Positions 6,671 through 54,066 of a DNA stretch of 64,000 nt are shown piece after piece. Location of the stretch: NCBI GenBank assembly GCA_030295235.1, contig AP026133.1, forward strand, positions 1,240,001 to 1,304,000, read 5' to 3'. Numbering within the stretch: position 1 is the first letter of the stretch; each line of letters opens with the position of its first letter. Under the pieces are notes generated by a model that made no database searches, was not told the DNA's origin, and worked only from the letters and a program-made list of their open reading frames with translations. The position numbers and the translations under genes are program-made. Source of the stretch: Fistulifera solaris (lineage: Eukaryota).

Positions 6671-9600
6671 CTACCGAACAAGGCACCGAGCAGGGTCGCT
6701 AGTTTCGAACCGGCATGTGCACCCTTCTCCGTCCCTCACAACAATAACTGAAGCAGAACGTGATAATTTCGCTGCAGTCAGCGTAAGAAGCAGGCCGTAT
6801 TGAATCGTAAAGAGCACAAATTTCATTCGGTAGGATCCCCGTTAGGTCGTTGTCGTCAATTCGAATGATCTCTATACTCGTCATCAGCGCTATGTCGGCA
6901 GGTACAGGACCTTCCAACTGGTTCGAGTTCAAGAAAAGCTGACGCACATTAGTCGCGCCACCGAGATTCGTCGGAATGGTCCCTTGCAAAGCATTTTCAC
7001 TCAGATCGAGTCTTTGAAGCTGTGTCAGTTGACCCATTGTTGATGGAATGGTGTTAATTAATCCGTTGGCTTTCATATTCAGCTGTCGCAAATTCACTAA
7101 ATTGTTGATTTGCTCCGGAATCGAGCTACCGAAGTAGTTGTTCTCACTAAGATCGAGAACCTGGAGGCTTGTCACGGAGAGTACGCCAAGGGGAAACTCT
7201 TCGAAATTGTTTTGCCTCAAGTTCAATTTTTCAAGAGACGATAGACTCGAAATTGAATCGGGAATCGCTGTGAAGTTGTTTGCTTCCAGGTTCATTTCTT
7301 TAAGCATTGATAAAGAGGAAAAGACATCAGATGGAATGGATTCCAGCAAATTACCGGAAAGGTCAAGGAAGGTGATTTCGGTAAGTGTAGAAAATGAGCC
7401 AGGAATGTCACCTTGAAGGCTGTTGAAGCTTAGATCAAGCTGCTGTAGCTGTGATAGTTTGCCGATCTCGGAAGGGATCGGACCTTCGAAGCTATTTCCA
7501 GAGATCACAAGTGAGCTGAGGACGGACAGCGAAATCACAGTCGACGGAATACCGCCGGTCAACGTGGAGGTGCTGTCGCGAGGATTGCGAATACTTATGC
7601 TGGTTAGTGTTGTTAGCAACGATATCTCATGCGGCAGCTCTCCTTGGAGGTTATTATCGTTTAGTGAGAGCACCAGCAATTCGTTATCAGGTGAACATCG
7701 TTGGGAGTCTGTGGAACTAGAATGCCAAAGACATTCATCTACGTCGGTAACCCAATCCGAATTTTCGGTCCACGAATCGCCATTCGTACTGTAAAATAAA
7801 GTAGCCAAGGCATAGCGCTGGACTATACGCAGGTCGTCCGTAGCTTTTGGCTCGCTTTCTGTCAACCATTTGAATGCAGTTCCTTGAGGCGTCTCGAGGT
7901 CAAGCAATGATTCGCAATCAGGAATAAGAGGACAAAGCAAGTCATACGCTTGTTTCTGATTAGGATCAATAGGCACGGCTTCAGAAGGCGAACTGGTTGG
8001 GGCGGTTGTAGATTCAATCGAAGGGTCCGCAGGATCGTCTTCTCCGACAGCAATTCCAATACCGACACCCGCGGCGATGCCAATAGCAATAAGAAGGATT
8101 CCCATCAAAAGTAAACACCGCTTTGTCCAATGGTTACCACTCCAATTCCTTTTAGCGTCCTTTCCTGACTCTGACTCGATCGCTTTTGTGTCAGTGTCCG
8201 ACATCTCTCTGGTGATCCGATCATCTCGCTGCATCTCGACGTCATTGTCAAGCCCGGTCGCTTCTATTAATGCATCTTTGTTGCCCGAGCGATCCAACCG
8301 ATCAAAAGCTCCAGGCTCGCCTTTTGCTGATACGACCATGAATGCTTCCTCTTCATCCACAGCTGCAGTTGCTGGATTTATTTCGCTTCTAGTCCACCAT
8401 CCGCGTTTTTCTCGCGGTGTACGTTCTTTTTCTGCCTTTCATTCACATCTTCAAATTCCGTTTCGTTTACTGGAGAGCTTTCAGTCTTTGCCCACCAGCC
8501 ACTTTTCACTGGAATTTCACCCTCTTTACTTTGGGGCTCATCGGACACCTCAGGTTCGATTTCGTCACCTGCGGCATGCTCTTTCGATGTCCGCCAGCGG
8601 CGCATAAATAATGGTACTTTGGCCGCTTCGTTTTGCATTAGGTCCTGAGTATCTGAGTCTAATTTGTCTTTCATATGATCTTCATTCCGACTATCCGCTG
8701 CAGATGGTTCCTCATTATGATTAGGCAGGGGCTCTACCAGCAAAGAGATACCTTGCCTTTTCCACCAGCTTCGTTTCACTGGTTCTTCACTTTCCTCTTT
8801 TTGATTTTCATCATGCGGCTCAGGTTCAGAGTCGTCTTGGGCGAGATCGGCTTTCCTCAGCCACCAACGCCTTTCTGCTTGTTTTTCACCCTCGTCTAAT
8901 TGTTGCTCTTCGCGAGTGTTCGATTTGAGTTCGTCTTCTTCGAGATTTTTCTTCTTTTCCACCAGAACCAAGACTTATTTTCTTTGCTAGTTGCTTCGCG
9001 ACCGCCAAGAATTTTTTCATTTGGAGACGTTGGTTCGACAGAATGACCATTGCTGAAATTATCATCATCGTCAGAGACGACTGCAATCTCGTTGACAGAG
9101 TCCGCAATGAACTCTTGCTCGATCGCAGCATCTCCTACCTCTATATCTTCATACTCTTCAGATTCGTCCTCTAATATTTCTTCTTCGATTTCAGATTCTT
9201 CTTCGATTTCAGATTCTTCTTCTAGTTCAGGCTCGGGATTCTCAATCTCATAGTAATCCTCCCCGCCTTCTTCTTCTTCTTCTTCTTCGGTCTCAATATT
9301 GGATTCGTCGCCTGCTTCTAAGATCTCGTTGTTCATATTTTCCTCGGTTTCAACTTCCACTTCAGAGTCCTCTTCATTCTCAACTTCAACTTCGGATTCT
9401 TCGTCTTCACTTTCAGCTTCCACTTCAGAAATTTCGTCGTCACGCTCGGCTTCGACATCGTAGTCTTCGTCCTCACTTTCAACTTCGACATCTGCGTCGT
9501 CGTCCTCACTCTCAGCGTCGACATAGGAGTCTTCGTCCTCACTATCAGCTTTCACATCAGAGGCCCCGTCCTCGTCATCGAGATTGAAGCTCTTTCCCTC

Positions 9601-12600
9601 TTCCTCGTCATCTTCTTGGGAATTTTGTTCCTCGTCCACGACGTCCTCCTCAGAAGCTTCTTCATCATCGACAAGAACAAGAATAGGTTTTGAGGATTCC
9701 TCTCCACCCTGGACATTATCTTTCAGGTGTTCTTCCTCGTCGTTAACCATGCCTCTTAGGCGGTTTTCGTTCTCCTGAGTAGTAGTTTCCACTCGGTCAT
9801 CCTCTCTGTCGACTTTCGCATTTTCTGTGGCCATTCTTCGTCTTAGCAAAGCCATCTGCACTTCATCGTTCATCTTCACCGTGGAAGTTCCAAGCGGATG
9901 ATTCCTGCGGATTTTATCGTCGATACTTTGTTCGTCGTTGCTCGATTCAGTCTTTTGCCGCCGCCTGCTAAAGATCGCTGCCAAGTCAGTACTCATCGAC
10001 GGTTTGTCATCTTGTATTTCTTTCTTTCTCTTTGTAAGATCGCCCCCCATGTCTTTTCCGCTGTCGGCTAGTTCTCTCCGACGCTGCAAAATGGAAAACA
10101 GACTACTTTTTGACTTTTTCTTTCTCTTTGTCTTCGAGTTCCTTTGCTGCCTTTGCCTTCAGCTCTGCTTCTTCTTCGGCTTGTTTTTCTGCCAGCAAGC
10201 TCGCCTTTTCATCTTCTTCTGCTTTCAGTCTTGCCGCTTCTTCTTTGACCTGCTTTTCTGCTAGCAACCTCATATTCTTTTCTTCTTCCGCTTTCATTCT
10301 TGCAGCTTCTTCTGCTTTTATCCTGGCCTCATCTTCTTCGGCTTGTATTGCGGCCAACAATCTAAGCTTTTCTTCTTCTTCCGCTTTCAATCTTGCCGCT
10401 TCTTCTTTGACCTGCTTTTCCGCTAGTAGCCTTGCATTCTCTTCTTCTTCCGCTTTCACTCTTCCCGCATCTTCTTCTTCTTTCAACCTGGCCTCTTCTT
10501 CTTCGGCTTGAATTTCGGCCGACAATCTAGCTTTTTCTTCTTCTTCTTCCATTTTCAATCGTGCCGCTTTTTCTTCGGCCTGCTTGTCCGCTAACAGCCT
10601 CGTCTTTTCGTTTTCGTCTGCTTTTACATTAGCCGTTTCTTGTGCTTCGTCGGGGATCTCGTCTTCAGCCACTATTTTTGCCGTTCCGGTGAGCAAAATT
10701 GCCGATTCGTCGGTAATTTTTGTGTCTTGTGCCGCAACTTCCGACACAGGCCTTCTTAAATCTTCTACAGCTTTTATCATATCTTCATCGGTGCTAGAAC
10801 GCTCAAGTACGGGTAGAGGTTCCATTGAGGATACTTCTCTCTCAATGTTCAAGTCTGACGCTAAACGAGTAATGCCAGAAGGCCTATCATCCTCTTGGTT
10901 TTCTGCCGCCTTCATCTTTGCTCTGCGCCCGATTCCAAAAAGACCTCTCTTTTTCGTCTTTTCCGGCAACTGGTCAGTTTCAATTGGAGCAAGAGTTGGA
11001 GTAGTTGTGGTCGCAGAATGAGATTGCGATGATGGGTCATGAGGAGCCGAAAGCTGTGTCTCTCTTTCCGAGGGTGCGGCTATATCTTTTCGATTATTGA
11101 AACCAAAGATTCCTCTCCTCTTCTTTTTCTCTGGGACGGAGACAGCAGTTGACGATACCTCTGCTATCTGATTAGCAGACGCAGGTTCTCTTGCAAATGA
11201 CTGTCGATTTTATCAATGCGATAAGTTGCATCTCCCATAATTTCCGCGGGTTTCGAGATTTCATCGATATCTGTTGGTTCCACCGTCGCGTCTTCATTGC
11301 CTGCCAATACAACATTATTGCGTGAGTCTTCCGTTCCCGTTTGGATAGTGCTCGAGGCAACGGTAAGGATTGGTTCTTGTGGAAGCGGATCCCTGTCACG
11401 GCTTTTCGATCGAGACCGATCTCCACGTCGAAATAATCCCATCAAGCCACGTTTCTTTTTAGAGTCTGCAGCAGTGGTGGATTGCGATTCTGTTACGGAG
11501 TCGCCCGATAGAATAATTCTGTTTTGCACATCAGGGCCGTCCTCGTCTTCATCACTACGATTCGCTGCCACCACGTTTGCTACAGTTGGTGGTAGAACTG
11601 CCGCAATTCTTTCCTCGTCTTCGTCGTCATCATCGTCGGAAAATTCAGAGTCATCCAAGTCTATCAAACGCGACTGTCGACGTGGTTTTTGTTCTTCGAA
11701 CAAAGTTGATTCCATGGCAGCCTCCGTAGTGTCTCCTATGATGTCGACATCTTCAGCTGTATTGCCCTGCTCATATGCATGAGCTACAACTTTCGCTTCC
11801 GAGGAATGTTGAGTGGAGGCATAATCCACTACTTCCGAAATATCACGATGGTCTGACTGGTCTGCTGCGTACAATGTGAGACGCTCTTGTTCAGAGATCA
11901 AATCCTGTTCATCATGTAGATTTAGCTGCTCTACCCTTTCACGACCGTCCGCTACTTCATTCGGTGTAACGTCTATTATTTGCTCGAGCTCTTCATGTGC
12001 CGATCGCGATGTCTCCGAGACGTCGGGCGCCGTTTCAACGTCGTAATCTTCCGATTGGGTATTTCGTTCGGAGCTTTGCAACAAACTAGCTGATGATGTA
12101 TCTGCCTTTCTGGAAGGTGTACTGACAGAGTCATCATTCACCGAGGTCTCCGCATCAGTGGAGATGACAGCTGGTGGATCTTCCTCACGCTTCGCTTCAG
12201 TCGAGTCAATAGGGGACACGTCTGTTGATTGGATCGATCCGGATTGTTCGGAAGTAGTTGACGAACTGTCACGAGAGCTGTCATCGTCGCTCTTTGTTGA
12301 TTCTGAATCCGATGAGTTCGAGGACGAGGAATGGGATGAGTCATCATTGTCATCCGATGTGGATGTTGTTGATGCTGCCGTAGAGTCACCGACAGTTACA
12401 CTTTCTCTGTCGGTTTCATTTTCGGAGGCAGAATTGGAGCTACTGCTACTGCTACTGCTACTGCTGCTGCTTCTACTACTACTCCGGCTCGATTGACTGT
12501 CGCCGTCGCTACTTTTGCTGCTTCGACTGCTTTTACTACTCGATGAAGATGACGAAGCATCCGAGCTTGGCGCTGCACTTGAACTTTCCCCCGTATCTGA

Positions 12601-12891
12601 ATTTGACGACTGACTTCGTCTTGATGAATCATCTGCCGTATCCGAGTTACTCGTATTTTCTGACGAAGACGAGCTACCAGAAGACTTTGAAGAAGAAGAA
12701 TTCACCGAGGATTTTGATGCCGATGACGAGGAGGAAGAGGATGACGACGATGAAGATGATGACGAGGAGGAGGACGACGACGACGACGATGAAGAAGATG
12801 ATGAGGAAGATGAGGATGAGGACGAGGACGCCGCCGAGCTGATCGACGAGTCATCTTCCAAGCCCTGCTCTGACATGTTAACATACTTCAT
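6671..12891 (-). CDS. Giant (~2,070 aa) type II membrane LRR protein: poly-Ser/acidic disordered region, EK coiled coil, TM helix, LRR ectodomain (five apparent frameshifts)
   Basis: ORFs 11164-12891, 10103-10969, 8896-10089, 8378-8971 and 6699-8360 join by single-base indels in homopolymers. TM CLLLMGILLIAIGIAAGVGIGIAV; diatom-type LRR cap (TPQGTAFKWL, QRYALATLFYST...W...C.W); plant-specific-type LRRs LxLxxNxLxGxIP; corrected end CCEDGEGCTCRFETSDPARCLVR*. Confidence 0.8.
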
Positions 12892-14151
12892 CGTTTCCTT
12901 GATTGTTGTGTTCTTGCAGATCTCTGCCAGTATTTAGTTTCGATGTGGTGTTGTCTTGCTTTTCTTTGTCGTCATGTTGTCACATGAAAACATAGAAAAT
13001 GCGAGGAACGAAATATCAAACCGCAAGAGTCATTTACTACACAAAATTCTATAGAATTATTCTGGAATGCGCCATTTTGTACTAATTCGCCGACAATTAT
13101 GTTGCCGGCTGCCAAATTTCTTCGGTTTCTCCCTCCAACGTGATCGTCTGTCGTCTGTCGTCTTCCACTCGTCAAAACTCAAAAACCGATCGAGAGGAAA
13201 CGTCAAAAACCTCAGACTGTTTTCATTACCACGGTACCGGTACCGGTATCTGTTCAAGCTACCCTGGTAATATCCTCCTCTGTCTTGCAATACTATCACC
13301 CTTGACTGTCATTGTTGCTGGTGCATGCTTTTCTTTCGGCGGTTGCAGGCCTATTTTGAGGTGAAAATTGTTGAGAAGCGCGCTTGCTCGCGGTAAAATA
13401 ATGAAAATGGCTCACGAAGACAAGTGATTCGCCCGAAATTGGTCTTTAAGAAACCGCGATTCTGTCGTGAAGAAACGCTGGAGACTAGAAATAAAGAACC
13501 AGAGCTTATTAATGCTAAAAGAGACTCCAGCAGACGAAATTCCGTATAGCTTCTCCTGCCTCCTTTTGTCCGATTACATTCATTCTTTCAAGAGCAAGAT
13601 TGCTCCATTTTGTCGCGAGGTCGGTTGTCGACGTTTCTCTGGCCTGTCTTGCCTGGCTTCTTTCATTGTGACTCTGAATTACCGGTAGACGAAAGGAAGC
13701 GCTCGCTTCTTCATGCTCGGTCGACATGGGCTTGCTGGTTCCTTCGACCTACTCGCATGTTCGGAGTTTGACGTCAATGATTCGATGTTTGGTTGCTAAC
13801 TTATGTGATCTGTCGTCACCACGCGTTCAATGATTTAGTCTTCAGTAGCCCTTGCTAAAACGTGGATAATCGGCTGGCAGCGTTTGAGATTGGTTGTGCT
13901 GAACGATGATGTTTCCATCCAAGCGAGATGTGGCTGCGCGTGCGGAACTTCGTGTTGGCTTCGTCGCGGCGAGTATCAACATGTTTCACTCTATGTTTCT
14001 AAAAATATCACTTGTGCGTTCTGTCTTGATGTACACTTGGACCTGTGCGATTGCATTTAATAGGGAGTAGTTCATAAAGTCTTTCATCATTAGTTTCATC
14101 ACTTTCATTACTTTGTATCAGTAACCAGAAAGATGAGAGAAGAACATTACT

Positions 14152-25650: not shown

Positions 25651-28600
25651 CTACTGTCGATATGGTTTGACGCGACGAATGGAAATTCGTTCGATCGTGA
25701 AGGCATTTCGTCGAATGCTGATGGTACCATTGGTATGGACTTGGACAATCGTAAATGGTCCGTACGCACGAGGCGCAAGTTTAGAAGGATTGTCGGCTAA
25801 TTTTAGCACTTTATCACCAATACGATAATCGTACGAAAATCTTTTGCGATTAGCTAGAATCATACGCTTGTCAATAAGTTGTTGACGATGTTGTTGGATA
25901 TTAATCCAATCTGCAACGACCGGTAGGTCGAGAAGCATGTCCCGGCCAAAAACAAGTGACCCAGGTGTTGCTTTTAAACCGCTGTGCAACGAAGCGCGTA
26001 TTGCATACATGCAATTGGCCAAGGCAGTGTCGACCATTTGTTTACCACTGGTAATGCCTGTGGAAGTGGCTAAGCGCGTCATGGTGCGAAGGGTGTTACC
26101 GACGACCTGATGCATGCGCTCACAAATTGAATTCCCTTGGGGATTTTTTGACCGTAGTAGGACGTGGAGTGATATGATTTTCCGCAAGTAGTGTTTGAAA
26201 ACCGTTACCGGTAAATTCAGTACCGTTGTCGTAAGTAACACTTACTGGTTTTGGATAGCGTGATAACCACACGTTATTGAATTGCATAGCAACGTGGTCT
26301 GACGTTTTATTGTCGAGTCGGACGAGCTCCGTCAGATGTGTGACTGGGTCGATCATTGTCAACGCAATAAATGTTTCATCGTAACCATGAAGATTGAGAG
26401 TCCACGGACCAATCAGGTCAACGTGAACTTCACGCCATGGATGGGCGGAGGCTTCGCGGGGCGCAGTTTCGCCATAGCCACGGGAAGGCGGTTTAGCCAT
26501 TTGGCATTCGTCACACTTGGCAACAATTTGCTCGATGACATCACGAAGTTTCGTGTTGTACAAGTGGATGCCGATGGTGTCTTCAAGACGCCGCTGGCCA
26601 AGATGACCAAGAGTGTGATGATACCACTCGACTGCCGGACGAAGTAATTCGTCTGGAAGGTAAACCTTCCAAGGTTCTGAGGGTGCTGGGATGTAGCAGC
26701 AGAGCTCGAGGTCAGGGGCAAGTTGATTCATCAGAAATTTTTCTGGATGTTTTTCGCGCAGAAGGTTTAGCCGGGCGTCCCTCAGCTGTGCTTCGCGGAT
26801 TGTTCGGTAGTCGACTACGAACGGAACCACCTCGGTGGGTGGTAGGTTGACAAAACAATCTAAAAGATCAGAGTCGTCAAGTGCCATGGAACTTTGTGTG
26901 TCTCGCGCAGGCAAGTCTGCGCCGGAACCGGGATTTTTGTTTTCATCGAATGAAAGCCGTGACAATGCATCAGCAAGAGGGTTATCAATGCCCTTTATGT
27001 GATAGAGTTTGATACCAAACTCTTCCAAGCAGAGTCCCCAGCGAATTACTCGCTGGGATTGTGTTGACAAATCGGAAGAACCGACGTTGTTGAGGTGGTC
27101 TGTATAGACATGGAGGTCAGGGCAACCGTAGAGCATAGTTTTAAATTCTTTAAGAACTTCAACAACTGATAGTAACTCTTTTTCACCAACGGTGTAGTTG
27201 CGTTGAGCTGCATTGAGCTTCTTTGACCAGTAGGCGACTGGAGCGCCTTCTTGCATGATAACAGCACCCATTTGGGTGTCGCTGGCATCTGTATAGATGT
27301 GAAATGGTTTGTTATGATCCGGGTATCGGAGGAATGCATCTTTGGCGAGAAGAGCTTTTATCTGCGCGAATGATTTGTTTATTGCTTCTGTCCAGATGAG
27401 TTTTGCGTTACCGCTAGAAACAGCAGTTAATGGAGCCAGAACTCCAGAGCGTTGTCGCCACATGTCGCGATAAAAGTTTACCGCGCCGAGGAAAGAGCGG
27501 AGTGCTTTCTTTGTTTTTGGATTGTTGATCGCGAGGATCGCATTGATTTTCTTACGCCAAGGCTTGAGCCCTGTCGGAGTAAGCCAGTAACCTAGCCAGT
27601 CGGTTTCTTGAACCCCCCACTCACATTTGAGTGGATTCACAGTGAAGTTATTATCTTGTAAGATAGTTAAGACTTTATCAAGCGATTTGATATGATCAGT
27701 CCAGGAATTGGAAAAGCAGCCTACATCGTCGATGTAGCAGTTGACTTCGTCGAGTTGACGGAAGAGATCTTCCATGACTTCTTGAGCGATGTCAGGGGCC
27801 ATTGATATGCCCATCGGTAGACGATTATATCTATAGTTGCCGAAAGGCGTGCAGATGACGCAAAGGTCCTTGCTTTCTTCGGTGAGTTCGAAGGTGTAGT
27901 AATGCATCGAGACATCAATTTTGGAGAAAAAAAAACTGTAGCCCGATCGTTGCGACAAAATGTCGGTTATTTTTGGGATAGGATAAACCTTTCGTTTAAT
28001 AACTTTATTAAGTTCTCTGAAATCAGAAATCCAGCGAACGCGACCGTCCTTTTGGTATAATAAAGGATGGAGCGAGCCATTCGTTTGCTCCGCAAGGAGA
28101 CAAGACGCCAATTTGGACGAGCCGTTCGATTTCGGCTTTGAACGTTTTCAAATGATAACGAGAAACACCGTAAGGTCGTTTTGCGACGGGTGTTGCGCCG
28201 GGTTGGAGTTCGAGATGAACTTTTTTGCGATGATATTTACCGAGCTGTCCGGAGAAAAGCTTTTTATATTTTGAAAATAGTTGCGCGAGGTCCTGCCTCT
28301 GTGATGGTGTGAGATGTTTCTGTTGCAAAGCAACGGAAGTCGGATCGACTGATTCGTATTTAGATTCAAGAATATCTTTGGATTTATATCCTGCCTCTCG
28401 GGCAATCTGTTCACGAAAGGTGAGGCGATCGTTAAAGGATCATCGGCGTGTTCGGAAACAAACGACGCGGAGGGTTGATTTGCGAAATAATCGGCAGGCC
28501 GAAATGGAATCATTTCGTCGAGCCATCGCACAGTGAGAGTAGAACTCAAAATGTCTATACCCAATGGGATAAGAACGTCATTACCTAGAATGATATCGTA

Positions 28601-37952: not shown

Positions 37953-39908
37953 ATGTCGCCGCAAAATGACCCTTTTCCGATGAGTTCTCCGGAGGCACAG
38001 CGCCTTGCGGCATCGGTAGGAAAAGGTGAAGGAGGTCAAACCAGTCAATCCTGGAGTTCTATGAATACGCAGTCTGCAGGAAAAGGACCTCGAGGTGAAG
38101 CAATTGAAGCAATCAGTGCGTCGAAAGGTCTCATTAAAGGTGAAAGCAAGTCGTATGATCAAGAAAACGACGAGCAAAATGAAGACGAGTTCTTTGATCG
38201 ACCAATGTGGGAGTCTCATGGGAACTCTTCAGAACGAAGAATGACACGCGTGTTGCGGATACTTGAAAGGATCTTCAAACGACTCTATGGTGACAAACTT
38301 CCACCGGCAGAAATGATACGAACCCTTTGCTTGGCTTCAACGCTTTTCTTTATGATTGGTGGCTACTGGTTGTTGCGCTCTTTGAAAGACCCTGTCCTGT
38401 CGGCTCTTTGCGGAATTGAGACTATCCCGAAAGCCAAGATTGTGTCAGTTTTCGTCGTTCTTGGCGTCGTTTCGATTTACAATCATTTACTGGACTCGGA
38501 TATCCCCAAGCATCGTCTTTTCTACATCTTCGGGACGTTTTACTTCGGGGCATTCATTGTTATTGCTCTGCTGCTAATGCACCCAACTATCGGACTGAAA
38601 AATGAAAAACCGAATCCATATCGACTTTTGGGATGGATTAGTTACTGCACGATCGAATCCTTCGGTTCCGTCATGGTCAGTTTGTTCTGGTCCTTTGCCA
38701 ACTCGAACATTACACTCGAGACAGCCAAAGCCAGTTACGGAATTATTGTTGCTACTGCACAGATCGGAAGTATTATCGGTCCGACGGTAGCTAGATTTGC
38801 GGAAACATTAGGGTAAGTGTATTTTGAAAAGTGGTTTTTGCTCTGATTGGCGCTCGTTTCACTCATGCGAATCGTCGCGCACCGCAATCGCAGCGTGGCT
38901 TCGTGTTACATGATCGGTGCGCTCTGTATGTTGTTGCTGCAAGGAACGATGCGGTTTTACATAGCCACCTATGGTGTTCAGGATAGAAATACCAGCAACC
39001 TCACAACAACAAAGAAAGCCAAGACCGGAATTTTGGAGGGGCTGCATCTCTTTGCGAAACACAACTATGTGAAGGGAATCTTTGCCATCAGTTGCTTATT
39101 CATGGTTGAGGTTACTATTGTTGACTTTACGATGAAACTTCTCGCGAAAGAGTACTTTGCCGAGGAATATCCTTGCGAAATGGGAATGGACTGCTACGAC
39201 GCACTGACAGGGGAACACGGAACATCAGCTCAAGCCACCGCTGCATTTGCCTCGTTCATGGGTCTTTTTGGACAGGCTACGAACTCCTTGTCGTTTTTGT
39301 TTAGTTTGTTTGGAACCAGCGCGGTGATTCGCTTTCTTGGCCTCCGATTGACACTTCTACTTTTTCCTTCCCTTTGTTTGTGCGTCATCATTTTTGTAAG
39401 ACTTTATCCAACTCTCTATGTTGTTTTTGGTGCTATGATGTTGCTAAAAGCAAATTCGTACGCACTCAACAATCCTACCAAAGAAATCCTTTACCAACCC
39501 ACCAGTTCTGCGGTGCGGTACAAAGCGAAGAGTTGGATCGATATTTTTGGTGCACGAGGTTCCAAAGCCCTTGGCAGTCTTGTTACGAATTTCTTTTCGG
39601 ATAGTGCCGCTAATCTAATTGCAAACGGAAGCTTCGTGGGAATGGGAGTTGCATCGTTTCTAATCTGGAATGCACGTTTCATGGGAAAGAAATTTGATGA
39701 GTACATCGAGACCGGGTATATCGTGGGCGGCGACGATGAAGATCAAGGTGAAAATGAATACACAAGTGTGGAAATGGCGTCTTCGCAGAACGATAAAGAG
39801 GAAACAAGTTGTGCTATTGACGAAGATGACGAATTGAGCCATGAAGAGGAGGGACAAGGCTCCGATGCCGCGGATAATTCAAAGAAGGCCAAGGTACAAA
39901 TGGTATAG
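37953..39908 (+). CDS. Nucleotide transporter (NTT/TLC ATP/ADP translocase family); intron 38813-38893
   Basis: [42 protein letters not shown]...[17 protein letters not shown]; the GT..AG intron restores the frame. Confidence 0.9.
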
Positions 39909-45270: not shown

Positions 45271-45825
45271 TTAGTGACCATCATGTCCATGCGCCCCGTC
45301 GTTATCATGACCGTGTCCCTCTTTGTGAGACAGCGAGCGGTCGAAAAGAGAGCGCATGTGGCCATCATGTCCATGCTCATCACCATCGTGTCCATGACCT
45401 TCTTTGTGTGACAAAGAGCGGTCAAAGAGCGAGCGATGACCGTCATGTCCATGCGCTCCGTCGTTATCGTGGCCGTGGCCCCCTTTGTGAGACAAGGCGC
45501 GATCAAAGAGCGAGCGATGACCATCATGGCCGTGAGCTCCATCATTATCATGACCGTGGCCGCCTTTGTGGGACAAAGAACGGTCAAAGAGAGAGCGATG
45601 ACCGTCATGGCCGTGAGCTCCGTCGTTATCGTGGCCGTGTCCCCCTTTGTGCGACAAGGAGCGGTCAAAGAGCCCTCCAGTTGACGTGGAGAAGCCAGAG
45701 GCAGCGATGTACATCACCGAACCCAAAGCAACAGCCGCGCAAAGGAATCGTCGACGGAAGCTCTTCTCAGAAGAGTTGACACCAGCGATGGTGTTGGTTT
45801 CATGAGTTGCTTCAATGTCATACAT
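45271..45825 (-). CDS. Membrane-anchored His/Gly/Asp-rich repeat precursor with RXL motifs (184 aa)
   Basis: RRR + hydrophobic helix FLCAAVALGSVMYIAASGF, then 5 units of ~27 aa (FDRSL-SHKGGHGHDNDGAHGHDGH-RSL); differences between repeats are mostly synonymous. Confidence 0.85.
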   Translation of the reverse strand: MYDIEATHETNTIAGVNSSEKSFRRRFLCAAVALGSVMYIAASGFSTSTGGLFDRSLSHKGGHGHDNDGAHGHDGHRSLFDRSLSHKGGHGHDNDGAHGHDGHRSLFDRALSHKGGHGHDNDGAHGHDGHRSLFDRSLSHKEGHGHDGDEHGHDGHMRSLFDRSLSHKEGHGHDNDGAHGHDGH

Positions 45826-47116: not shown

Positions 47117-48073
47117 TTAGGATTTCTTCAGGTGCTGGAGTACGCACACCAGACGAAAAGCTAGCATTTCGTCGTCCACTTGAACCCCTTCTTCTAATGC
47201 ACCATGCATTTCCACTAGCTCAAGACCCGCACATCGAGCGAGTGCAGCAATTTCTTGTGCCGTAAAGAGCCTCAGTGGTACGACTTGTCGAATATTCTGA
47301 ATGCCCTCCGATTGTGCAACTCCCACAAGCTCCATCGCGACTGTAAATTGCCTAACTTGTCGAATGGGATCAAACGCGTCTCCATCATCGCCCCAAATAA
47401 TTTTTAGCTCTCCTGATTCTTTTCCGGAATCGTCTTCCAGCGGCACTTTCCAACTATTTTTGGTACATTCGACCATGGAGAAAGTTTCACGCGGGTGTGG
47501 GAGCTCTAGCACAATGGTGCCATCCTCCGCTAGTGCTTCCTGAACCGCTTGTAAACAGGATATTACGTCATCATTGGAAGTGAGATGCTGCAAGGAGCCA
47601 AGCAGAATCCATACCGTGTCGACAGAGTCCTTGCCGTTTTTATATCGAAACGATCGCATATCATCGACGCAATACTGAAACGACTTGAGCTGCTGTTCAT
47701 CTAGCAACTCTGCGGCTATTTCTATTGCGTAATCTGCCATTTCTTGTGAACTATCTACCGCTGTAGCCGTCTGAATAGAAGAGTCCGACAAAGCCGTAAG
47801 AGCATGCCGAGCTGGACCTGCCGCCAGCTCAAGTACTGAAAGTGCCGGACGACCTACCAATCGTTCGTGTGTATTCAATAAAAAGTCCACTTCTTCTTCA
47901 AAGTCACGATACCCAAACGCTAAATCGTAGAGTGCTGGGAGTGAGTAGATGGATTCTCCTTTTCCCACAGTAGCACGAAGAGATGTGACACATTTCTTTT
48001 GTGTCGTCAAGATGAATGCTTGATTGGAGGCCGTAAACAGTCCAAAAACGAACAGGAATGCCGGACGACTCAT
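47117..48073 (-). CDS. Class I SAM-dependent methyltransferase, probably plastid-targeted
   Basis: YDLAFGYRDFEEEVDFL, VLELAAGPARHA, AVDSSQEM, DDMRSF, GSLQHL; signal peptide + AF motif. Confidence 0.85.
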   Translation of the reverse strand: MSRPAFLFVFGLFTASNQAFILTTQKKCVTSLRATVGKGESIYSLPALYDLAFGYRDFEEEVDFLLNTHERLVGRPALSVLELAAGPARHALTALSDSSIQTATAVDSSQEMADYAIEIAAELLDEQQLKSFQYCVDDMRSFRYKNGKDSVDTVWILLGSLQHLTSNDDVISCLQAVQEALAEDGTIVLELPHPRETFSMVECTKNSWKVPLEDDSGKESGELKIIWGDDGDAFDPIRQVRQFTVAMELVGVAQSEGIQNIRQVVPLRLFTAQEIAALARCAGLELVEMHGALEEGVQVDDEMLAFRLVCVLQHLKKS

Positions 48074-52011: not shown

Positions 52012-54066
52012 ATGATACTCACAGCAACGAAAAAAGAAGTTTCACCCAGGATTCCTACCAAGCTTGTTTTACTGATCGTGTGTCTATTGCCTGGATTAAT
52101 AATACCGTCCGAAAACCCCGCTGGATGGGTCGACCCCGACACGCCGTGGGAGGCACGAACGACACAAAAGTACAACGCCATCCCACACCAACCCTCTTCT
52201 TCTTCGTCGTCGTCGTCGTCGACAACAAGTACAATCACCAGCAACAAACGAAAACGACCGACAGCAGAAGCCAGTGCACAACCATCGGCGGCACCATCGC
52301 ATTCGACGGAATTTCCTTCACAATCTCCGTCGTTGTCCCCTAGTTCTTATCCCACTTACGTTCCGCGCAATTTTCAATTAGTCTTTAGTGATGAATTCAA
52401 TACGCCCTTTCGAACCTTTGTGGATGGTGCCGATCCGCGCTGGACGGCTCTCGATAAGAATGATTACACAAATGACGCGCTGCACTATTACTCTCCGGAA
52501 AATGCTTTTACGAACGAACAAGGGGAACTGGTGATTACCAGCGAAGCGAAAAATACCGATATTGTGGGCTTTGATGACATTCAATTGAAAAAGACTCGTG
52601 TGACGAAACATTTTCGATCCGCTATGCTGCAAACGTGGAATAAATTTTGCTTCACGGGAGGTATTATGGAAGCCGAAGTCATTCTTCCAGGAAAACACAA
52701 CGTCGGAGGCTTGTGGCCGGCATTTTGGTTACTAGGTAATCTGGCGAGACATACTTACGTTGGTACATCGGAACATATCTGGCCGTGGAGCTCCACAACG
52801 TGCACACGCAAGTCGTTTACCGCTCAAGCGGTTTCGGCGTGCGATAGGGCGGCGCACTATGGATTAGAACAAGGTGTCGGTCGAGGTGCGCCAGAAATTG
52901 ACGTATTTGAAGTGCAACCAGGGAATATCAAAGGAAACACGGGCCCTTTTCTCAAAACGACAGTAGGACAACCTTTCATGAGTGCGTCATTTCAAGTTGC
53001 TCCAGGTCGATCGGCCAATCGACCTGGACCCGGTGAGTGGCCGGGTCCAACACAATGGTACAAAGGCTTGACGCCCGGAAGGAATACAAGTCTCAATATA
53101 CTGTTCTATGGCGACTACAATCACTTTCTGGATGATGTTCATCCCGCTGAGCAAGACTACTGGAGTGATGCTATCAGTATGAATCGACAATTGGATCAGA
53201 CTTACTTCGAAAATCCCCACGTGTATCGAGTCGAATGGGAACCACCAACCGAAGGTTTTGGCGGCTACTTGCATTGGTTCTTGGACGGTGAACTTGTTTT
53301 CGCTTTGAACGGTACAGGAATTCAATCAGCAGGATACGGCGCGGAAATATCGAGCGAACCGAGTTACATTTTGTTGAATACAGCGATATCCAAGCAATGG
53401 GGTTTTCCTCATGAATGTCCAGCGAATTGCCCTTGTAAGCAGTATGATTGTAATTCAGAGCACTGGGAAAGCGCGTGTGGATTTTCCGAGGGGTTTTGCG
53501 ACATGATCAAAACGAGACCGCAGTACAAGATTAACTGGGTAAGAGTCTACCAAGATCCCCAGAATCCAATTCACAAGGTGGGATGTTCAACACCTGAGCG
53601 ACCAACTCGTCGATTTATTGAAGCTCGAGAACATTTATATAAGTCTCCAAGCGATGTTAGACCGTTGAAAGGAGTACAACGTGGTGGTGGCATTTGCTTG
53701 CCTTCTGCTGCCGGGGTCGTACCTGATGCCTGCGGTGGTGATGAAAGAGGGAGATGTACTGCTGGCAAGGTGTGTGAGTGCAGGGTGGGATGGACGGGTC
53801 CCCACTGTCTCGCCCCGCAAGGACGCGACCCTATTCTGTATGATGAGCCTGACAGTATATTGGACGTCGGATTCATACCGCCGCGTGTATTCCCGATGTT
53901 CTTGGCCGTAGGAGGTATCTTGCTTTTGAGCTTGCTACTCTTAACGATTGCCGGGCGAAGACGATTAGAGAGTTGGTCCCCCATTCCCAGCGTCGAGGCG
54001 CAGTCTCTCGCGAAGTTTACGGCTCAGGACAACTACTCGGGACAACAAGAAGTTTACTGGACATAG
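52012..54066 (+). CDS. GH16 KRE6/SKN1-like 1,6-beta-transglycosylase (TGS-type, chrysolaminarin-related) with EGF-like module and C-terminal TM
   Basis: GWVDPDTP, LVFSDEF, SAMLQTWNKFCFTGG, GLWPAFWLLGNL, GRGAPEIDVFE; C..G.CEC..GWTGPHC; TM helix. Confidence 0.9.
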   Translation: MILTATKKEVSPRIPTKLVLLIVCLLPGLIIPSENPAGWVDPDTPWEARTTQKYNAIPHQPSSSSSSSSSTTSTITSNKRKRPTAEASAQPSAAPSHSTEFPSQSPSLSPSSYPTYVPRNFQLVFSDEFNTPFRTFVDGADPRWTALDKNDYTNDALHYYSPENAFTNEQGELVITSEAKNTDIVGFDDIQLKKTRVTKHFRSAMLQTWNKFCFTGGIMEAEVILPGKHNVGGLWPAFWLLGNLARHTYVGTSEHIWPWSSTTCTRKSFTAQAVSACDRAAHYGLEQGVGRGAPEIDVFEVQPGNIKGNTGPFLKTTVGQPFMSASFQVAPGRSANRPGPGEWPGPTQWYKGLTPGRNTSLNILFYGDYNHFLDDVHPAEQDYWSDAISMNRQLDQTYFENPHVYRVEWEPPTEGFGGYLHWFLDGELVFALNGTGIQSAGYGAEISSEPSYILLNTAISKQWGFPHECPANCPCKQYDCNSEHWESACGFSEGFCDMIKTRPQYKINWVRVYQDPQNPIHKVGCSTPERPTRRFIEAREHLYKSPSDVRPLKGVQRGGGICLPSAAGVVPDACGGDERGRCTAGKVCECRVGWTGPHCLAPQGRDPILYDEPDSILDVGFIPPRVFPMFLAVGGILLLSLLLLTIAGRRRLESWSPIPSVEAQSLAKFTAQDNYSGQQEVYWT

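What the first reader, a model, noticed from the sequence alone, without database searches (positions are those of the whole stretch)
45271..45825. Candidate polyprotein precursor of His-rich, SHK-starting metal-binding peptides released at diatom RXL sites
Seen: a 184-aa ORF with a short N-terminus, RRR plus one hydrophobic helix (type II anchor), then five ~81-bp repeats FDR(S/A)L-SHK(G/E)GHGHD(N/G)D(GA/E)HGHDGH-(M)RSL, ending exactly at the end of the last peptide. Units 1 and 2 differ at 11 codons, all synonymous, so the peptide rather than the DNA is conserved. Established: diatom silaffin and silacidin precursors are repeat polyproteins cut after RXL motifs (RIL, RRL), with mature peptides starting at Ser; an N-terminal Xaa-His, as in the GHK tripeptide, binds Cu(II). 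Inference: cleavage after RSL would release five 18-19-aa peptides with 6 His each and a free Ser-His-Lys N-terminus. This would be a ribosomally made secreted metallophore/metal buffer or a new His-based cell-wall peptide class. I do not recognise a described family.
Basis: partly seen in the sequence, partly recalled or inferred. Interest (0 to 1): 0.88.

Follow-up and report, generated by a model that had tools for sequence, protein, structure and literature searches.

The report
Diatom His-rich RXL repeat peptide precursor
A diatom gene encodes a small precursor with one membrane helix followed by five nearly identical histidine-rich peptides, each bounded by the Arg-x-Leu motif known from diatom cell-wall peptide precursors; it belongs to a small undescribed family whose role, in the silica wall or in metal binding, is still open.

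Summary
A 184-aa ORF lies on the minus strand at 45271-45825. It has a 26-aa N-terminus ending in RRR, one hydrophobic helix, and five ~27-aa units. The stop codon follows the last His-rich peptide directly. Units 1, 2, 3 and 5 differ almost only at synonymous sites (dN/dS below 0.03), so the peptide is under selection. A neighbouring gene places the window in a diatom.

Exhaustive searches found three full-length relatives and one fragment, all unnamed. They share the architecture: the first R-x-L sits at residues 55-57 in 4 of 4 proteins. All 19 Arg residues after the helix lie in R-x-L. The SHK start is not conserved, and His per peptide falls from 6 to 2.

The Cu-binding Ser-His N-terminus does not generalise, and the metallophore role is untested.

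My best reading is a new RXL-delimited peptide precursor with silaffin/silacidin-like logic and new His/Asp/Lys peptide chemistry. I slightly favour a cell-wall or silica role over a metal role. Expression, cleavage and function are all inferred. There is no Pfam, PDB, Atlas or literature match.

The parts
45271..45825 (-). Complete single-exon CDS (184 codons plus TAA stop) of the precursor, P0001
   Evidence: The relative P0002 starts with the same five residues, which supports this ATG.
45748..45825 (-). Residues 1-26: N-terminal, presumably cytosolic, tail ending in the family-conserved E-x-x-F-R-[RK]-R motif
   Evidence: E20, F23, R24 and R26 are invariant in the alignment of 4 proteins. 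The N-flank net charge is +3 against +1 on the C-flank.
45691..45747 (-). Residues 27-45: the single hydrophobic helix, either a signal anchor or the h-region of a long signal peptide
   Evidence: It is the best 19-aa Kyte-Doolittle window, 1.88 (1.59-2.13 in the relatives). It lies in the only fairly confident stretch of the AlphaFold2 model, a helix at 16-42 with block pLDDT 70-75.
45655..45690 (-). Residues 46-57: Ser/Thr/Gly-rich linker ending in G-G-L-F-D-R-S-L. This is the first R-x-L, the 'pro-peptide' site.
   Evidence: G50, L52, F53, R55 and L57 are invariant. R-x-L is at residues 55-57 in 4 of 4 proteins.
45598..45654 (-). Peptide 1 (residues 58-76, 19 aa, 6 His)
45574..45597 (-). 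Spacer 1 (residues 77-84, RSLFDRSL: two R-x-L motifs)
45517..45573 (-). Peptide 2 (residues 85-103). Its protein sequence is identical to peptide 1; units 1 and 2 differ at 11 synonymous codons.
45493..45516 (-). Spacer 2 (residues 104-111, RSLFDRAL)
45436..45492 (-). Peptide 3 (residues 112-130)
45412..45435 (-). Spacer 3 (residues 131-138)
45358..45411 (-). Peptide 4 (residues 139-156, 18 aa, the divergent unit with E for G and one residue fewer)
45331..45357 (-). Spacer 4 (residues 157-165, M plus RSLFDRSL)
   Evidence: The fragment P0003 starts at the matching Met.
45274..45330 (-). Peptide 5 (residues 166-184), followed directly by the stop codon with no trailing spacer
   Evidence: P0002 and P0003 end at the same point of the unit.

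Best explanation
P0001 is a real, selected diatom gene for a small precursor that enters the secretory pathway.

Proposed mechanism:
1. The conserved basic motif (E-x-x-F-R-[RK]-R) stays on the cytosolic side. The single hydrophobic helix inserts N-in/C-out, either as a type II signal anchor or as a long signal peptide. The repeat region therefore faces the lumen.
2. The still unidentified diatom endoprotease that recognises R-x-L cuts after the Leu about 10 residues beyond the helix, and again at every unit boundary. The spacer (RSLFDRSL) is trimmed away, as RRIL/RRNL are lost from mature silaffins.
3. This releases five 18-19-aa His/Asp/Gly peptides. They share a conserved core: Lys at position 3 followed by H-x-H.
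4. The peptides are disordered and switch charge with pH, about +2 to +4 at pH 5 and -3 to -5 at pH 8.

I think their most likely place of action is the silica deposition vesicle or cell wall, as a His-based counterpart of silaffin/silacidin peptides. Metal binding (Zn, Cu, Ni) would be an intrinsic and possibly functional property.

Shown: gene structure, repeat anatomy, purifying selection, diatom origin, family-wide conservation of the helix and R-x-L positions, predicted disorder.
Inferred: ER entry and orientation, cleavage, trimming, location, function.

My odds: repeats lumenal about 0.85; processed at R-x-L about 0.6; primary role in cell wall or biosilica about 0.35 against about 0.25 for a metal role.
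For: Selection:
- Unit pairs among 1, 2, 3 and 5 show 7-13.5 synonymous and 0-2 non-synonymous differences. dS runs from 0.55 to saturation, dN from 0 to 0.036, and dN/dS is below 0.03 where it can be computed.

Origin:
- Every named hit among the 120 listed for the neighbouring SKN1/KRE6 gene is a diatom, apart from one cut-off 'Bolid...' entry at 53% identity. Pennates reach 58-63% identity and centrics 55-58%.

Family:
- HMMER over 1.84 billion representatives gave 5 hits. The word-indexed searches gave the same proteins.
- P0002, P0004 and P0006 share the plan: a tail of about 25 aa, the basic motif, a 19-aa hydrophobic window (KD 1.59-2.13), a short linker, then units.

R-x-L is the conserved element:
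- The invariant columns of the 4-protein alignment include F53, R55, L57, K60, F80, R82, L84 and K87, although the peptides differ.
- The first R-x-L is at residues 55-57 in 4 of 4 proteins.
- 19 of 19 Arg residues after the helix lie in R-x-L: 9/9, 3/3, 4/4 and 3/3. Composition-matched shuffles give a mean of 0.2-0.6 per protein.
- P0001, P0002 and P0003 end exactly after a peptide. P0004 and P0006 keep an R-x-L between the last peptide and an unrelated tail even though the usual Phe is lost there. This is the pattern expected of a processing site.

Precedent (passages read, not whole papers):
- RXL is proposed as the general recognition motif of a diatom endopeptidase. It sits after the signal peptide and at the C-terminus of repeats in Sil1p, frustulins, cingulins and silacidins. 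Mature silaffins lack RRIL/RRNL, and the silacidin precursor is repetitive and processed (PMC4557024).
- N-terminal RXL sites mark pro-peptide cleavage and had so far been found only in biosilica-associated proteins (PMC5647440). Sin1 carries an RXL domain (PMC5525289).
- His/Asp-rich repeats occur in silica proteins of a sponge (glassin, PMC10282587) and of sorghum, where they sit in a protein that also has RXL sites (Slp1, 10.1101/518332).

Peptide properties:
- Charge switch.
- The AlphaFold2 model has mean pLDDT 46.8, and 140 of 184 residues are below 50.
Against: - There is no evidence of transcription, translation or cleavage for this gene or any relative.
- The relatives are few (3 full-length proteins and 1 fragment). 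All are unnamed environmental or genome gene calls of unknown taxon. Repeat units within one protein are not independent observations.
- No signal-peptide or topology predictor could be run. The 26-aa n-region is long for a signal peptide.
- PMC5647440 itself says that RXL-dependent precursor processing 'remains to be proven'. The restriction of RXL to biosilica proteins may reflect which proteins have been N-terminally sequenced.
- P0001 is poor in Lys (6 of 184) and does not look like a silaffin in composition.
- His content is not conserved (6 to 2 per peptide). This weakens any function that depends on many His, including silica catalysis.
- P0001 and P0002 have A-S-G followed by F at the end of the helix, which resembles the plastid ASAFAP cleavage motif.
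Confidence: 0.45

Rival explanations
1. Processing is the same, but the released peptides are secreted, ribosomally made metal ligands (a metallophore or metal buffer for Cu, Zn or Ni) and not wall components.
For: - Each P0001 peptide has 6 His and 3-5 Asp/Glu in 18-19 residues.
- An H-x-H pair after Lys-3 is present in 12 of 12 peptide units of the four proteins. It could be a minimal conserved metal site.
- Multi-His/Asp motifs bind Zn, Ni and Cu, and an N-terminal Xaa-His binds Cu(II). This is general chemistry that I recall and did not test here.
- At seawater pH the peptides are anionic and soluble.
Against: - The Xaa-His start is absent from 7 of 7 units of the relatives.
- His falls to 2 of 23 residues in P0006.
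- No metal-related gene is adjacent.
- No diatom peptide metallophore appeared in the listing of the 12 best of 889 papers, nor among the 15 best of 457.
- Unmodified His peptides usually bind with micromolar to nanomolar affinity. That is weak against the strong ligand classes of seawater (recalled).
Confidence: 0.22
2. The protein is not cut. It stays as a type II membrane protein whose His/Asp-rich repeat ectodomain works at a membrane surface, for example in metal capture or storage or in pH buffering. In this reading F-x-R-x-L is a structural or binding motif.
For: - The hydrophobic window has anchor length (19 aa, KD 1.6-2.1), with more positive charge on its N-flank.
- The juxtamembrane motif E-x-x-F-R-[RK]-R is conserved in 4 of 4 proteins. 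That is unusual for a signal peptide that is thrown away.
- RXL cleavage in diatoms is not fully proven (PMC5647440).
Against: - Only R and L, plus mostly F, are kept at the boundaries while the units between them diverge.
- The last unit ends at the stop codon without a spacer in P0001, P0002 and P0003. In P0004 and P0006 it is separated from the tail by an R-x-L. This fits excision better than structure.
- No fold is predicted for the repeats.
Confidence: 0.18
3. The N-terminus is a bipartite plastid-targeting presequence, a signal peptide cut at A-S-G|F followed by a Ser/Thr-rich transit-like stretch. The His-rich repeats would then act inside the complex plastid.
For: - P0001 and P0002 read A-S-G-F-S at the end of the helix, followed by S/T/A/P/G residues.
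- The diatom motif ASAFAP has Phe at +1, which is crucial for import. Transit peptides are rich in hydroxylated residues (PMC4329603, passages).
Against: - P0004 and P0006 have Val or Ser, not F/W/Y/L, at the matching place. ASAFind would call such proteins 'not plastid'.
- The 26-aa acidic and basic n-region is atypical.
- The region after the putative cut soon becomes acidic.
- SignalP and ASAFind were not available, so this was never scored.
Confidence: 0.08
4. The ORF is a chance open frame across a non-coding 81-bp minisatellite.
For: Two overlapping repeat-derived ORFs of 123 and 137 aa also stay open, one on the opposite strand and one in another frame of the same strand. The exact protein is not in the 15-billion-protein collection.
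Against: - 11 of 11 codon differences between units 1 and 2 are synonymous. In a simulation, 0 of 20000 sets of 11 random base changes left the peptide unchanged.
- Relatives at 27-63% identity keep the whole architecture.
Confidence: 0.02

Closest known systems
Diatom silaffin precursor Sil1p (Cylindrotheca fusiformis) and silacidin precursor (Thalassiosira pseudonana)
   Same: - A small secretory precursor.
- An R-x-L shortly after the N-terminal hydrophobic signal.
- Tandem short units, each bounded by R-x-L-type motifs.
- A spacer that is absent from the mature peptide (RRIL/RRNL in Sil1p).
- Source: PMC4557024, passages.
   Different: - No detectable sequence similarity: only 5 hits in the whole library, none named, and no Pfam match.
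- The peptides are His/Asp/Gly-rich with a single Lys. Silaffins are Lys/Ser-rich and silacidins are Ser/Asp/Glu-rich.
- The N-terminus has a long 26-aa tail with a conserved basic motif and an anchor-length helix, unlike the 19-aa signal peptide of Sil1p.
- The spacer is a double R-x-L.
Membrane-anchored diatom biosilica proteins with RXL domains (SAP1/3, Silicanin-1)
   Same: - One membrane helix.
- A lumenal region bearing an R-x-L pro-peptide site.
- The lumenal part is delivered to silica while the membrane part is separated from it.
- Sources: PMC5647440; PMC5525289.
   Different: - Those proteins are type I: a cleaved signal peptide, a C-terminal helix and a conserved cytosolic C-domain.
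- Here the only helix is N-terminal, the cytosolic part is about 26 residues, and the lumenal part is purely tandem peptides.
His/Asp-rich repeat domains of silica proteins: glassin (hexactinellid sponges) and Siliplant1 (sorghum)
   Same: - Repetitive, disordered His- and Asp-rich segments in proteins that act on silica.
- Slp1 also carries RXL sites at repeat ends.
- Glassin is cut from a larger precursor.
- Sources.
   Different: - Unrelated lineages, with no sequence similarity found.
- Those proteins are large and have several kinds of domain.
- This is an analogy of composition only.
N-terminal Xaa-His Cu(II) peptides (GHK type) and His-rich secreted peptides
   Same: If the protein is cut after R-S-L, each P0001 peptide would start Ser-His-Lys, so His would be the second residue.
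   Different: - The feature is not conserved: 0 of 7 units in the relatives have it.
- It depends on a cleavage that has not been shown.
- The Cu chemistry is recalled and was not tested here.

Membership tests
Diatom RXL-processed repeat precursors (silaffin Sil1p / silacidin type) | N-terminal signal for entry into the ER | tested here: inconclusive
   There is one hydrophobic window at residues 27-45 (KD 1.88), with basic residues on its N-side and a helix at 16-42 in the model. No signal-peptide or topology predictor was available, and the n-region is long at 26 aa.
Diatom RXL-processed repeat precursors (silaffin Sil1p / silacidin type) | R-x-L shortly after the signal (pro-peptide site) | tested here: met
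   R55-x-L57 is present in 4 of 4 family members, 10-12 residues after the helix. For the feature itself see PMC4557024 and PMC5647440.
Diatom RXL-processed repeat precursors (silaffin Sil1p / silacidin type) | Tandem peptide units each bounded by R-x-L | tested here: met
   12 of 12 peptide units are preceded by R-x-L. 19 of 19 Arg residues after the helix lie in R-x-L.
Diatom RXL-processed repeat precursors (silaffin Sil1p / silacidin type) | Proteolytic release of the units; peptides recovered from biosilica | not testable with these tools
   This needs peptidomics, N-terminal sequencing or tagged protein.
Silaffins in the strict sense | Lys/Ser-rich units (KXXK-type clusters) that carry polyamine and phosphate modifications | tested here: not met
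   P0001 has 6 Lys in 184 residues, one per unit, and no KXXK. P0006 has S-K-S-K-S but still no KXXK. The criterion is taken from PMC5501833.
Plastid-targeted proteins with an ASAFAP bipartite presequence | A predicted signal peptide whose cleavage site is followed by F, W, Y or L at +1, then a transit-like stretch | tested here: inconclusive
   A-S-G|F-S is present in P0001 and P0002. P0004 and P0006 have V or S at that place. SignalP and ASAFind were not run. The criterion is from PMC4329603.
Xaa-His (GHK-like) N-terminal Cu(II) peptides | Free N-terminus with His as the second residue, conserved across the family | tested here: not met
   5 of 5 units in P0001 but 0 of 7 units in P0002, P0004 and P0006. 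A free N-terminus also depends on cleavage that has not been shown.
Any curated protein family or solved structure | Significant profile match | tested here: not met
   - Pfam: 0 families for P0001, P0002, P0004 and P0006.
- PDB sequences: 0 matches at E up to 0.1.
- ESM Atlas: no usable hit for P0001 or P0004.

The most novel reading that the evidence does not exclude
Diatoms make gene-encoded metal ligands. A membrane-anchored polyprotein would be cut at R-x-L sites in the secretory pathway and release several copies of a short His/Asp peptide (core: Lys-3 followed by H-x-H). The peptide would leave the cell and complex Cu, Zn or Ni in the surrounding water or at the wall. That would be a eukaryotic, unmodified counterpart of bacterial ribosomal peptide metallophores, and a molecular identity for part of the uncharacterised metal-binding ligand pool produced by phytoplankton.
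Probability: 0.15. Interest if true: 0.85.

Novelty: new variant of a known kind. Interest (0 to 1): 0.55.

Why it matters
Only a handful of diatom peptide precursors of the RXL type are known, and all were found by biochemistry on silica extracts. This family was found from sequence alone. It keeps the R-x-L punctuation across 27-63% identity while the peptides between the sites change.

That makes it a clean substrate for two open problems. One is identifying the RXL protease, which PMC5647440 still describes as unproven. The other is asking whether RXL processing is confined to silica proteins.

If the peptides are wall-associated, they add a His-based, pH-switching chemistry to the Lys/polyamine and phospho-Ser chemistries known in diatom silica. 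That would parallel sponge glassin and plant Siliplant1. If they are exported metal ligands, they would be the first gene-encoded candidates for phytoplankton-derived metal-binding ligands. Either outcome is directly testable with a 19-residue synthetic peptide and one tagged gene.

Tried and rejected
- **Whole genome:** none is held for this window, so paralogues outside the window could not be sought. tblastn of P0001 against the window found only itself; the other hits had E of 0.97 or more.
- **Related DNA loci:** The search for related loci on metagenome contigs with the 4-protein alignment matched a peptide pattern at 77 stretches, but tblastn confirmed none. A degenerate DNA pattern for the first unit boundary gave 0 matches. 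No orthologous DNA, synteny or between-species dN/dS was therefore obtained.
- **Family size:** a second word-indexed search with the alignment added no new member, giving 3 proteins, all already known.
- **P0005:** this 504-aa protein has 27-aa F-D-R-S-V-S units, no R-x-L and no hydrophobic helix. It shares only the unit start and the period (26% identity). I do not count it as a member.
- **Tat-like reading:** R-R-R-F-L before the helix in P0001 resembles the bacterial twin-arginine consensus (recalled). I rejected this reading. The gene is nuclear and eukaryotic, the motif is at the extreme N-terminus, and the relatives have R-K-R.
- **RTX-like reading:** G-G-H-G-H-D resembles the calcium-binding G-G-x-G-x-D motif (recalled). 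I rejected it because it occurs once per unit, lacks the hydrophobic position, and is absent from P0002, P0004 and P0006.
- **Structure:** the AlphaFold2 model gave only the N-terminal helix with any confidence, so no fold search was run.
- **Literature:**
  - A 14-residue stretch of the peptide occurs in 0 papers.
  - 'diatom + RXL + histidine-rich' gave 2 papers, both on Plasmodium/Phytophthora export signals.
  - Searches on histidine-rich diatom frustule proteins and on diatom metal-binding or metallophore peptides showed no description of this family among the rows listed: 15 of 347, 15 of 457 and 12 of 889.
  - Supplements were not opened. Proteome tables of silica extracts (for example 10.1101/2021.09.18.460806, seen only in a search listing) might hold relatives.
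- **Earlier findings of this scan:** nothing by place, sequence or words.
Full report
**Observation**

On the minus strand an ORF runs from the ATG at 45825 to the TAA at 45273-45271 and encodes 184 residues (P0001). Tandem Repeats Finder reports an 81-bp period with 4.9 copies over 45275-45673, score 449.

The protein has these parts:
- a 26-residue N-terminus ending in RRR;
- one 19-residue hydrophobic window at residues 27-45, mean Kyte-Doolittle 1.88;
- a 12-residue Ser/Thr/Gly linker;
- five units of the type FDRSLSHKGGHGHDNDGAHGHDGHRSL.

The stop codon follows the fifth His-rich peptide directly. Each peptide has 6 His.

**It is a coding sequence under selection, not a minisatellite**

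Units 1 and 2 differ at 11 codons, and all 11 differences are synonymous. Among units 1, 2, 3 and 5 there are 7-13.5 synonymous and 0-2 non-synonymous differences per pair. Synonymous divergence runs from 0.55 to saturation, dN is 0-0.036, and dN/dS is below 0.03 where it can be computed. In a simulation, 0 of 20000 sets of 11 random base changes left the peptide unchanged. The duplications are therefore old and the peptide sequence has been held constant. Two overlapping ORFs, one on the opposite strand and one in another frame of the same strand, are by-products of the repeat.

**Organism and context**

The window is eukaryotic nuclear DNA. Pfam finds a gypsy-type retroelement pol, Mak16, a TLC nucleotide transporter in two ORFs, an LRR protein and an SKN1/KRE6 glucan protein. 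No genome is held for it.

The SKN1/KRE6 neighbour at 52012-54066 has 847 relatives with E up to 1e-30. Among the 120 listed:
- every hit that carries an organism name is a diatom, apart from one cut-off 'Bolid...' entry at 53% identity;
- pennates (Mayamaea, Nitzschia, Fragilaria, Pseudo-nitzschia, Cylindrotheca, Seminavis) reach 58-63% identity;
- centrics (Skeletonema, Thalassiosira, Stephanodiscus) reach 55-58%;
- one unnamed record reaches 95%.

The flanking genes on the same strand are a 397-aa ORF without a Pfam match and a SAM-dependent methyltransferase. I see no metal-related or silica-related neighbour.

**Relatives**

The family is very small. The searches gave:
- a word-indexed search of 5.8 billion proteins: one relative, P0002;
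- an exhaustive HMMER search of 1.84 billion representatives with a two-sequence profile: five hits;
- a second word-indexed search with a four-sequence profile: nothing new.

The members are:
- P0002 (101 aa, 59-63% identity) has the same first five residues, the same basic motif, helix and linker. It has two units whose peptide reads SGKGEHEDHDAHDGHGH.
- P0003 is a 28-residue gene call on a 61.7-kb contig. It equals the last spacer plus the last peptide of P0001 with one substitution.
- P0004 (150 aa) and P0006 (120 aa) are 27-38% identical to P0001. They have the same plan with three and two units, whose peptides read HGKSHDHHSKSGGDDVFM and GGKSHGHDEEGSKSKSGGDDAVL. A short unrelated tail follows in each.

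None of these proteins carries a name or a Pfam domain. Their taxa are unknown. P0005 shares only the F-D-R-S-x-S unit start and the 27-residue period. It has no R-x-L and no helix, so I leave it out.

**What is conserved**

The alignment of the four proteins has these invariant columns:
- in the tail: E20, F23, R24, R26;
- around the end of the helix and the linker: A41, S43, S46, G50;
- at the first two unit boundaries: L52, F53, R55, L57, K60 and F80, R82, L84, K87.

Further points:
- The first R-x-L occupies residues 55-57 in 4 of 4 proteins.
- Every Arg after the helix is part of an R-x-L: 9 of 9, 3 of 3, 4 of 4 and 3 of 3, which is 19 of 19 in total. Composition-matched shuffles give a mean of 0.2-0.6 such motifs per protein. 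Units within one protein are copies, so the comparison across proteins is the meaningful part.
- Phe stands two residues before the Arg at 12 of 14 main boundaries. The two exceptions are the sites in front of the non-repeat tails of P0004 and P0006, where R-x-L is nevertheless kept.
- P0001, P0002 and P0003 end exactly after a peptide, with no spacer.
- Within the peptides only Lys at position 3 and a following H-x-H are present in 12 of 12 units.
- The Ser-His-Lys start is specific to P0001: 5 of 5 units there, against 0 of 7 in the relatives.
- His per peptide falls from 6 to 5, 4 and 2 across the four proteins.

**Targeting**

The flank before the helix is more basic than the flank after it (+2 to +3 against +1). 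By the positive-inside rule the repeats should therefore face the lumen, whether the helix is a type II anchor or the core of a long signal peptide. Small residues that would suit signal peptidase follow the helix in all four proteins. I could not run SignalP or a topology predictor.

The conserved juxtamembrane motif argues mildly for a retained anchor. It also fits the dibasic [RK]-x-[RK] ER-export signal of type II Golgi proteins, which I recall from memory and did not test.

P0001 and P0002 read A-S-G-F-S at the end of the helix. This resembles the diatom plastid motif ASAFAP, whose Phe at +1 is crucial for import (PMC4329603, passages). P0004 and P0006 have Val or Ser there, so plastid targeting is not a family property. 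It stays a minor rival.

**Fold and charge**

AlphaFold2 with the four-sequence alignment gives mean pLDDT 46.8. There is a helix at 16-42 with block pLDDT 70-75, and 140 of 184 residues score below 50. The repeats are probably disordered.

The calculated net charge of the putative mature peptides is +0.6 to +3.8 at pH 5 and -1.7 to -4.9 at pH 8. They would be cationic in an acidic vesicle and anionic in sea water.

**Comparison with what is known**

From the passages I read in a silaffin review (PMC4557024):
- Sil1p has an RXL after its signal peptide.
- Its repeat units end in RRIL or RRNL, which the mature silaffins lack.
- RXL motifs stand at the C-terminus of repeats in frustulins, cingulins and silacidins.
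- RXL may be the general recognition motif of a specific endopeptidase.
- The silacidin precursor is highly repetitive and is processed.

Tesson et al. (PMC5647440, passages) state that RXL sites had so far been found only in biosilica-associated proteins. They add that N-terminal RXL sites mark pro-peptide cleavage and that the processing hypothesis remains to be proven. Their SAP proteins, and Sin1 (PMC5525289), combine an RXL domain with one membrane helix, although as type I proteins.

His/Asp-rich repeats occur in silica proteins elsewhere:
- glassin of glass sponges (PMC10282587, passages);
- Siliplant1 of sorghum, which also has RXL sites at repeat ends (10.1101/518332, passages).

P0001 has no detectable sequence similarity to anything named, and a 14-residue stretch of its peptide occurs in no searchable paper.

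**Most likely mechanism**

The steps below are inferred. Only the anatomy and its conservation are shown.
1. The precursor inserts N-in/C-out into the ER.
2. The R-x-L endoprotease cuts about 10 residues from the membrane and at each unit boundary.
3. The RSLFDRSL spacer is removed. Cutting after both R-x-L sites would free an FDRSL pentapeptide and leave RSL on each peptide's C-terminus, which would have to be trimmed as in silaffins.
4. Five copies of an 18-19-residue His/Asp/Gly peptide are set free in a late secretory compartment or outside the cell.

My odds are:
- about 0.85 that the repeats are lumenal;
- about 0.6 that they are cut at R-x-L;
- about 0.35 that the products act in the silica deposition vesicle or wall;
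- about 0.25 that their main role is metal binding;
- the remainder for other uses, or for no processing at all.

The wall role is favoured by the RXL precedent, by the charge switch, and by the Ser/Lys plus acidic make-up of the distant relatives. The metal role is favoured by the conserved H-x-H and by the extreme His/Asp content of P0001.

**Novelty and limits**

This is an undescribed small family that follows a known diatom logic, the RXL-delimited repeat precursor. It differs in its peptide chemistry and in its N-terminal module, so I rate it a new variant of a known kind.

The limits are:
- four full-length family members and one fragment;
- no taxon for the relatives;
- no orthologous DNA;
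- no expression or protein data;
- no targeting predictor;
- papers read as passages only, and supplements not opened.

Noticed in passing
window 8381-12933 (-): A run of long ORFs without Pfam matches. It holds a poly-Ser tract of more than 50 residues, very acidic Glu/Asp-rich stretches and A-E-E-E-A-R-L-K-type coiled-coil repeats. A basic K-K-(K)-R-G-[LI]-F-G motif recurs three times. The region has a strong AT skew (-0.31 to -0.35) and GC skew (-0.15 to -0.23).
   Followed up: no
window 47117-48073 (-): The gene next to the start (5') end of the precursor, on the same strand, encodes a SAM-dependent methyltransferase (Methyltransf_25, E 4.6e-08). It has an N-terminal hydrophobic segment that may be a targeting signal. 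Whether it has any link to the neighbouring Lys-bearing peptides is unknown.
   Followed up: no
window 26120-27907 (-), perhaps extending to 29482: A retrotransposon pol ORF with its domains in the order RT, RNase H, integrase, which is gypsy/Ty3-like.
   Followed up: no
window 37953-38816 and 38865-39908 (+): A TLC-type ATP/ADP (nucleotide) transporter split over two adjacent ORFs, probably by a short intron.
   Followed up: no
window 52012-54066 (+): An SKN1/KRE6-type beta-glucan protein with a C-terminal EGF-like domain. An unnamed public record holds a 95% identical protein, and the next best hits reach only 71%. The organism therefore has one close sequenced relative but no close named one.
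   Followed up: partly
protein P0005 (not in the window): A 504-aa protein on a 78-kb contig. It has about eight 27-residue units that start F-D-R-S-[VI]-S and are rich in Ser, Asp and Glu. The unit start and period match P0001, but there is no R-x-L and no hydrophobic helix. It may be a distant offshoot or a coincidence.
   Followed up: partly
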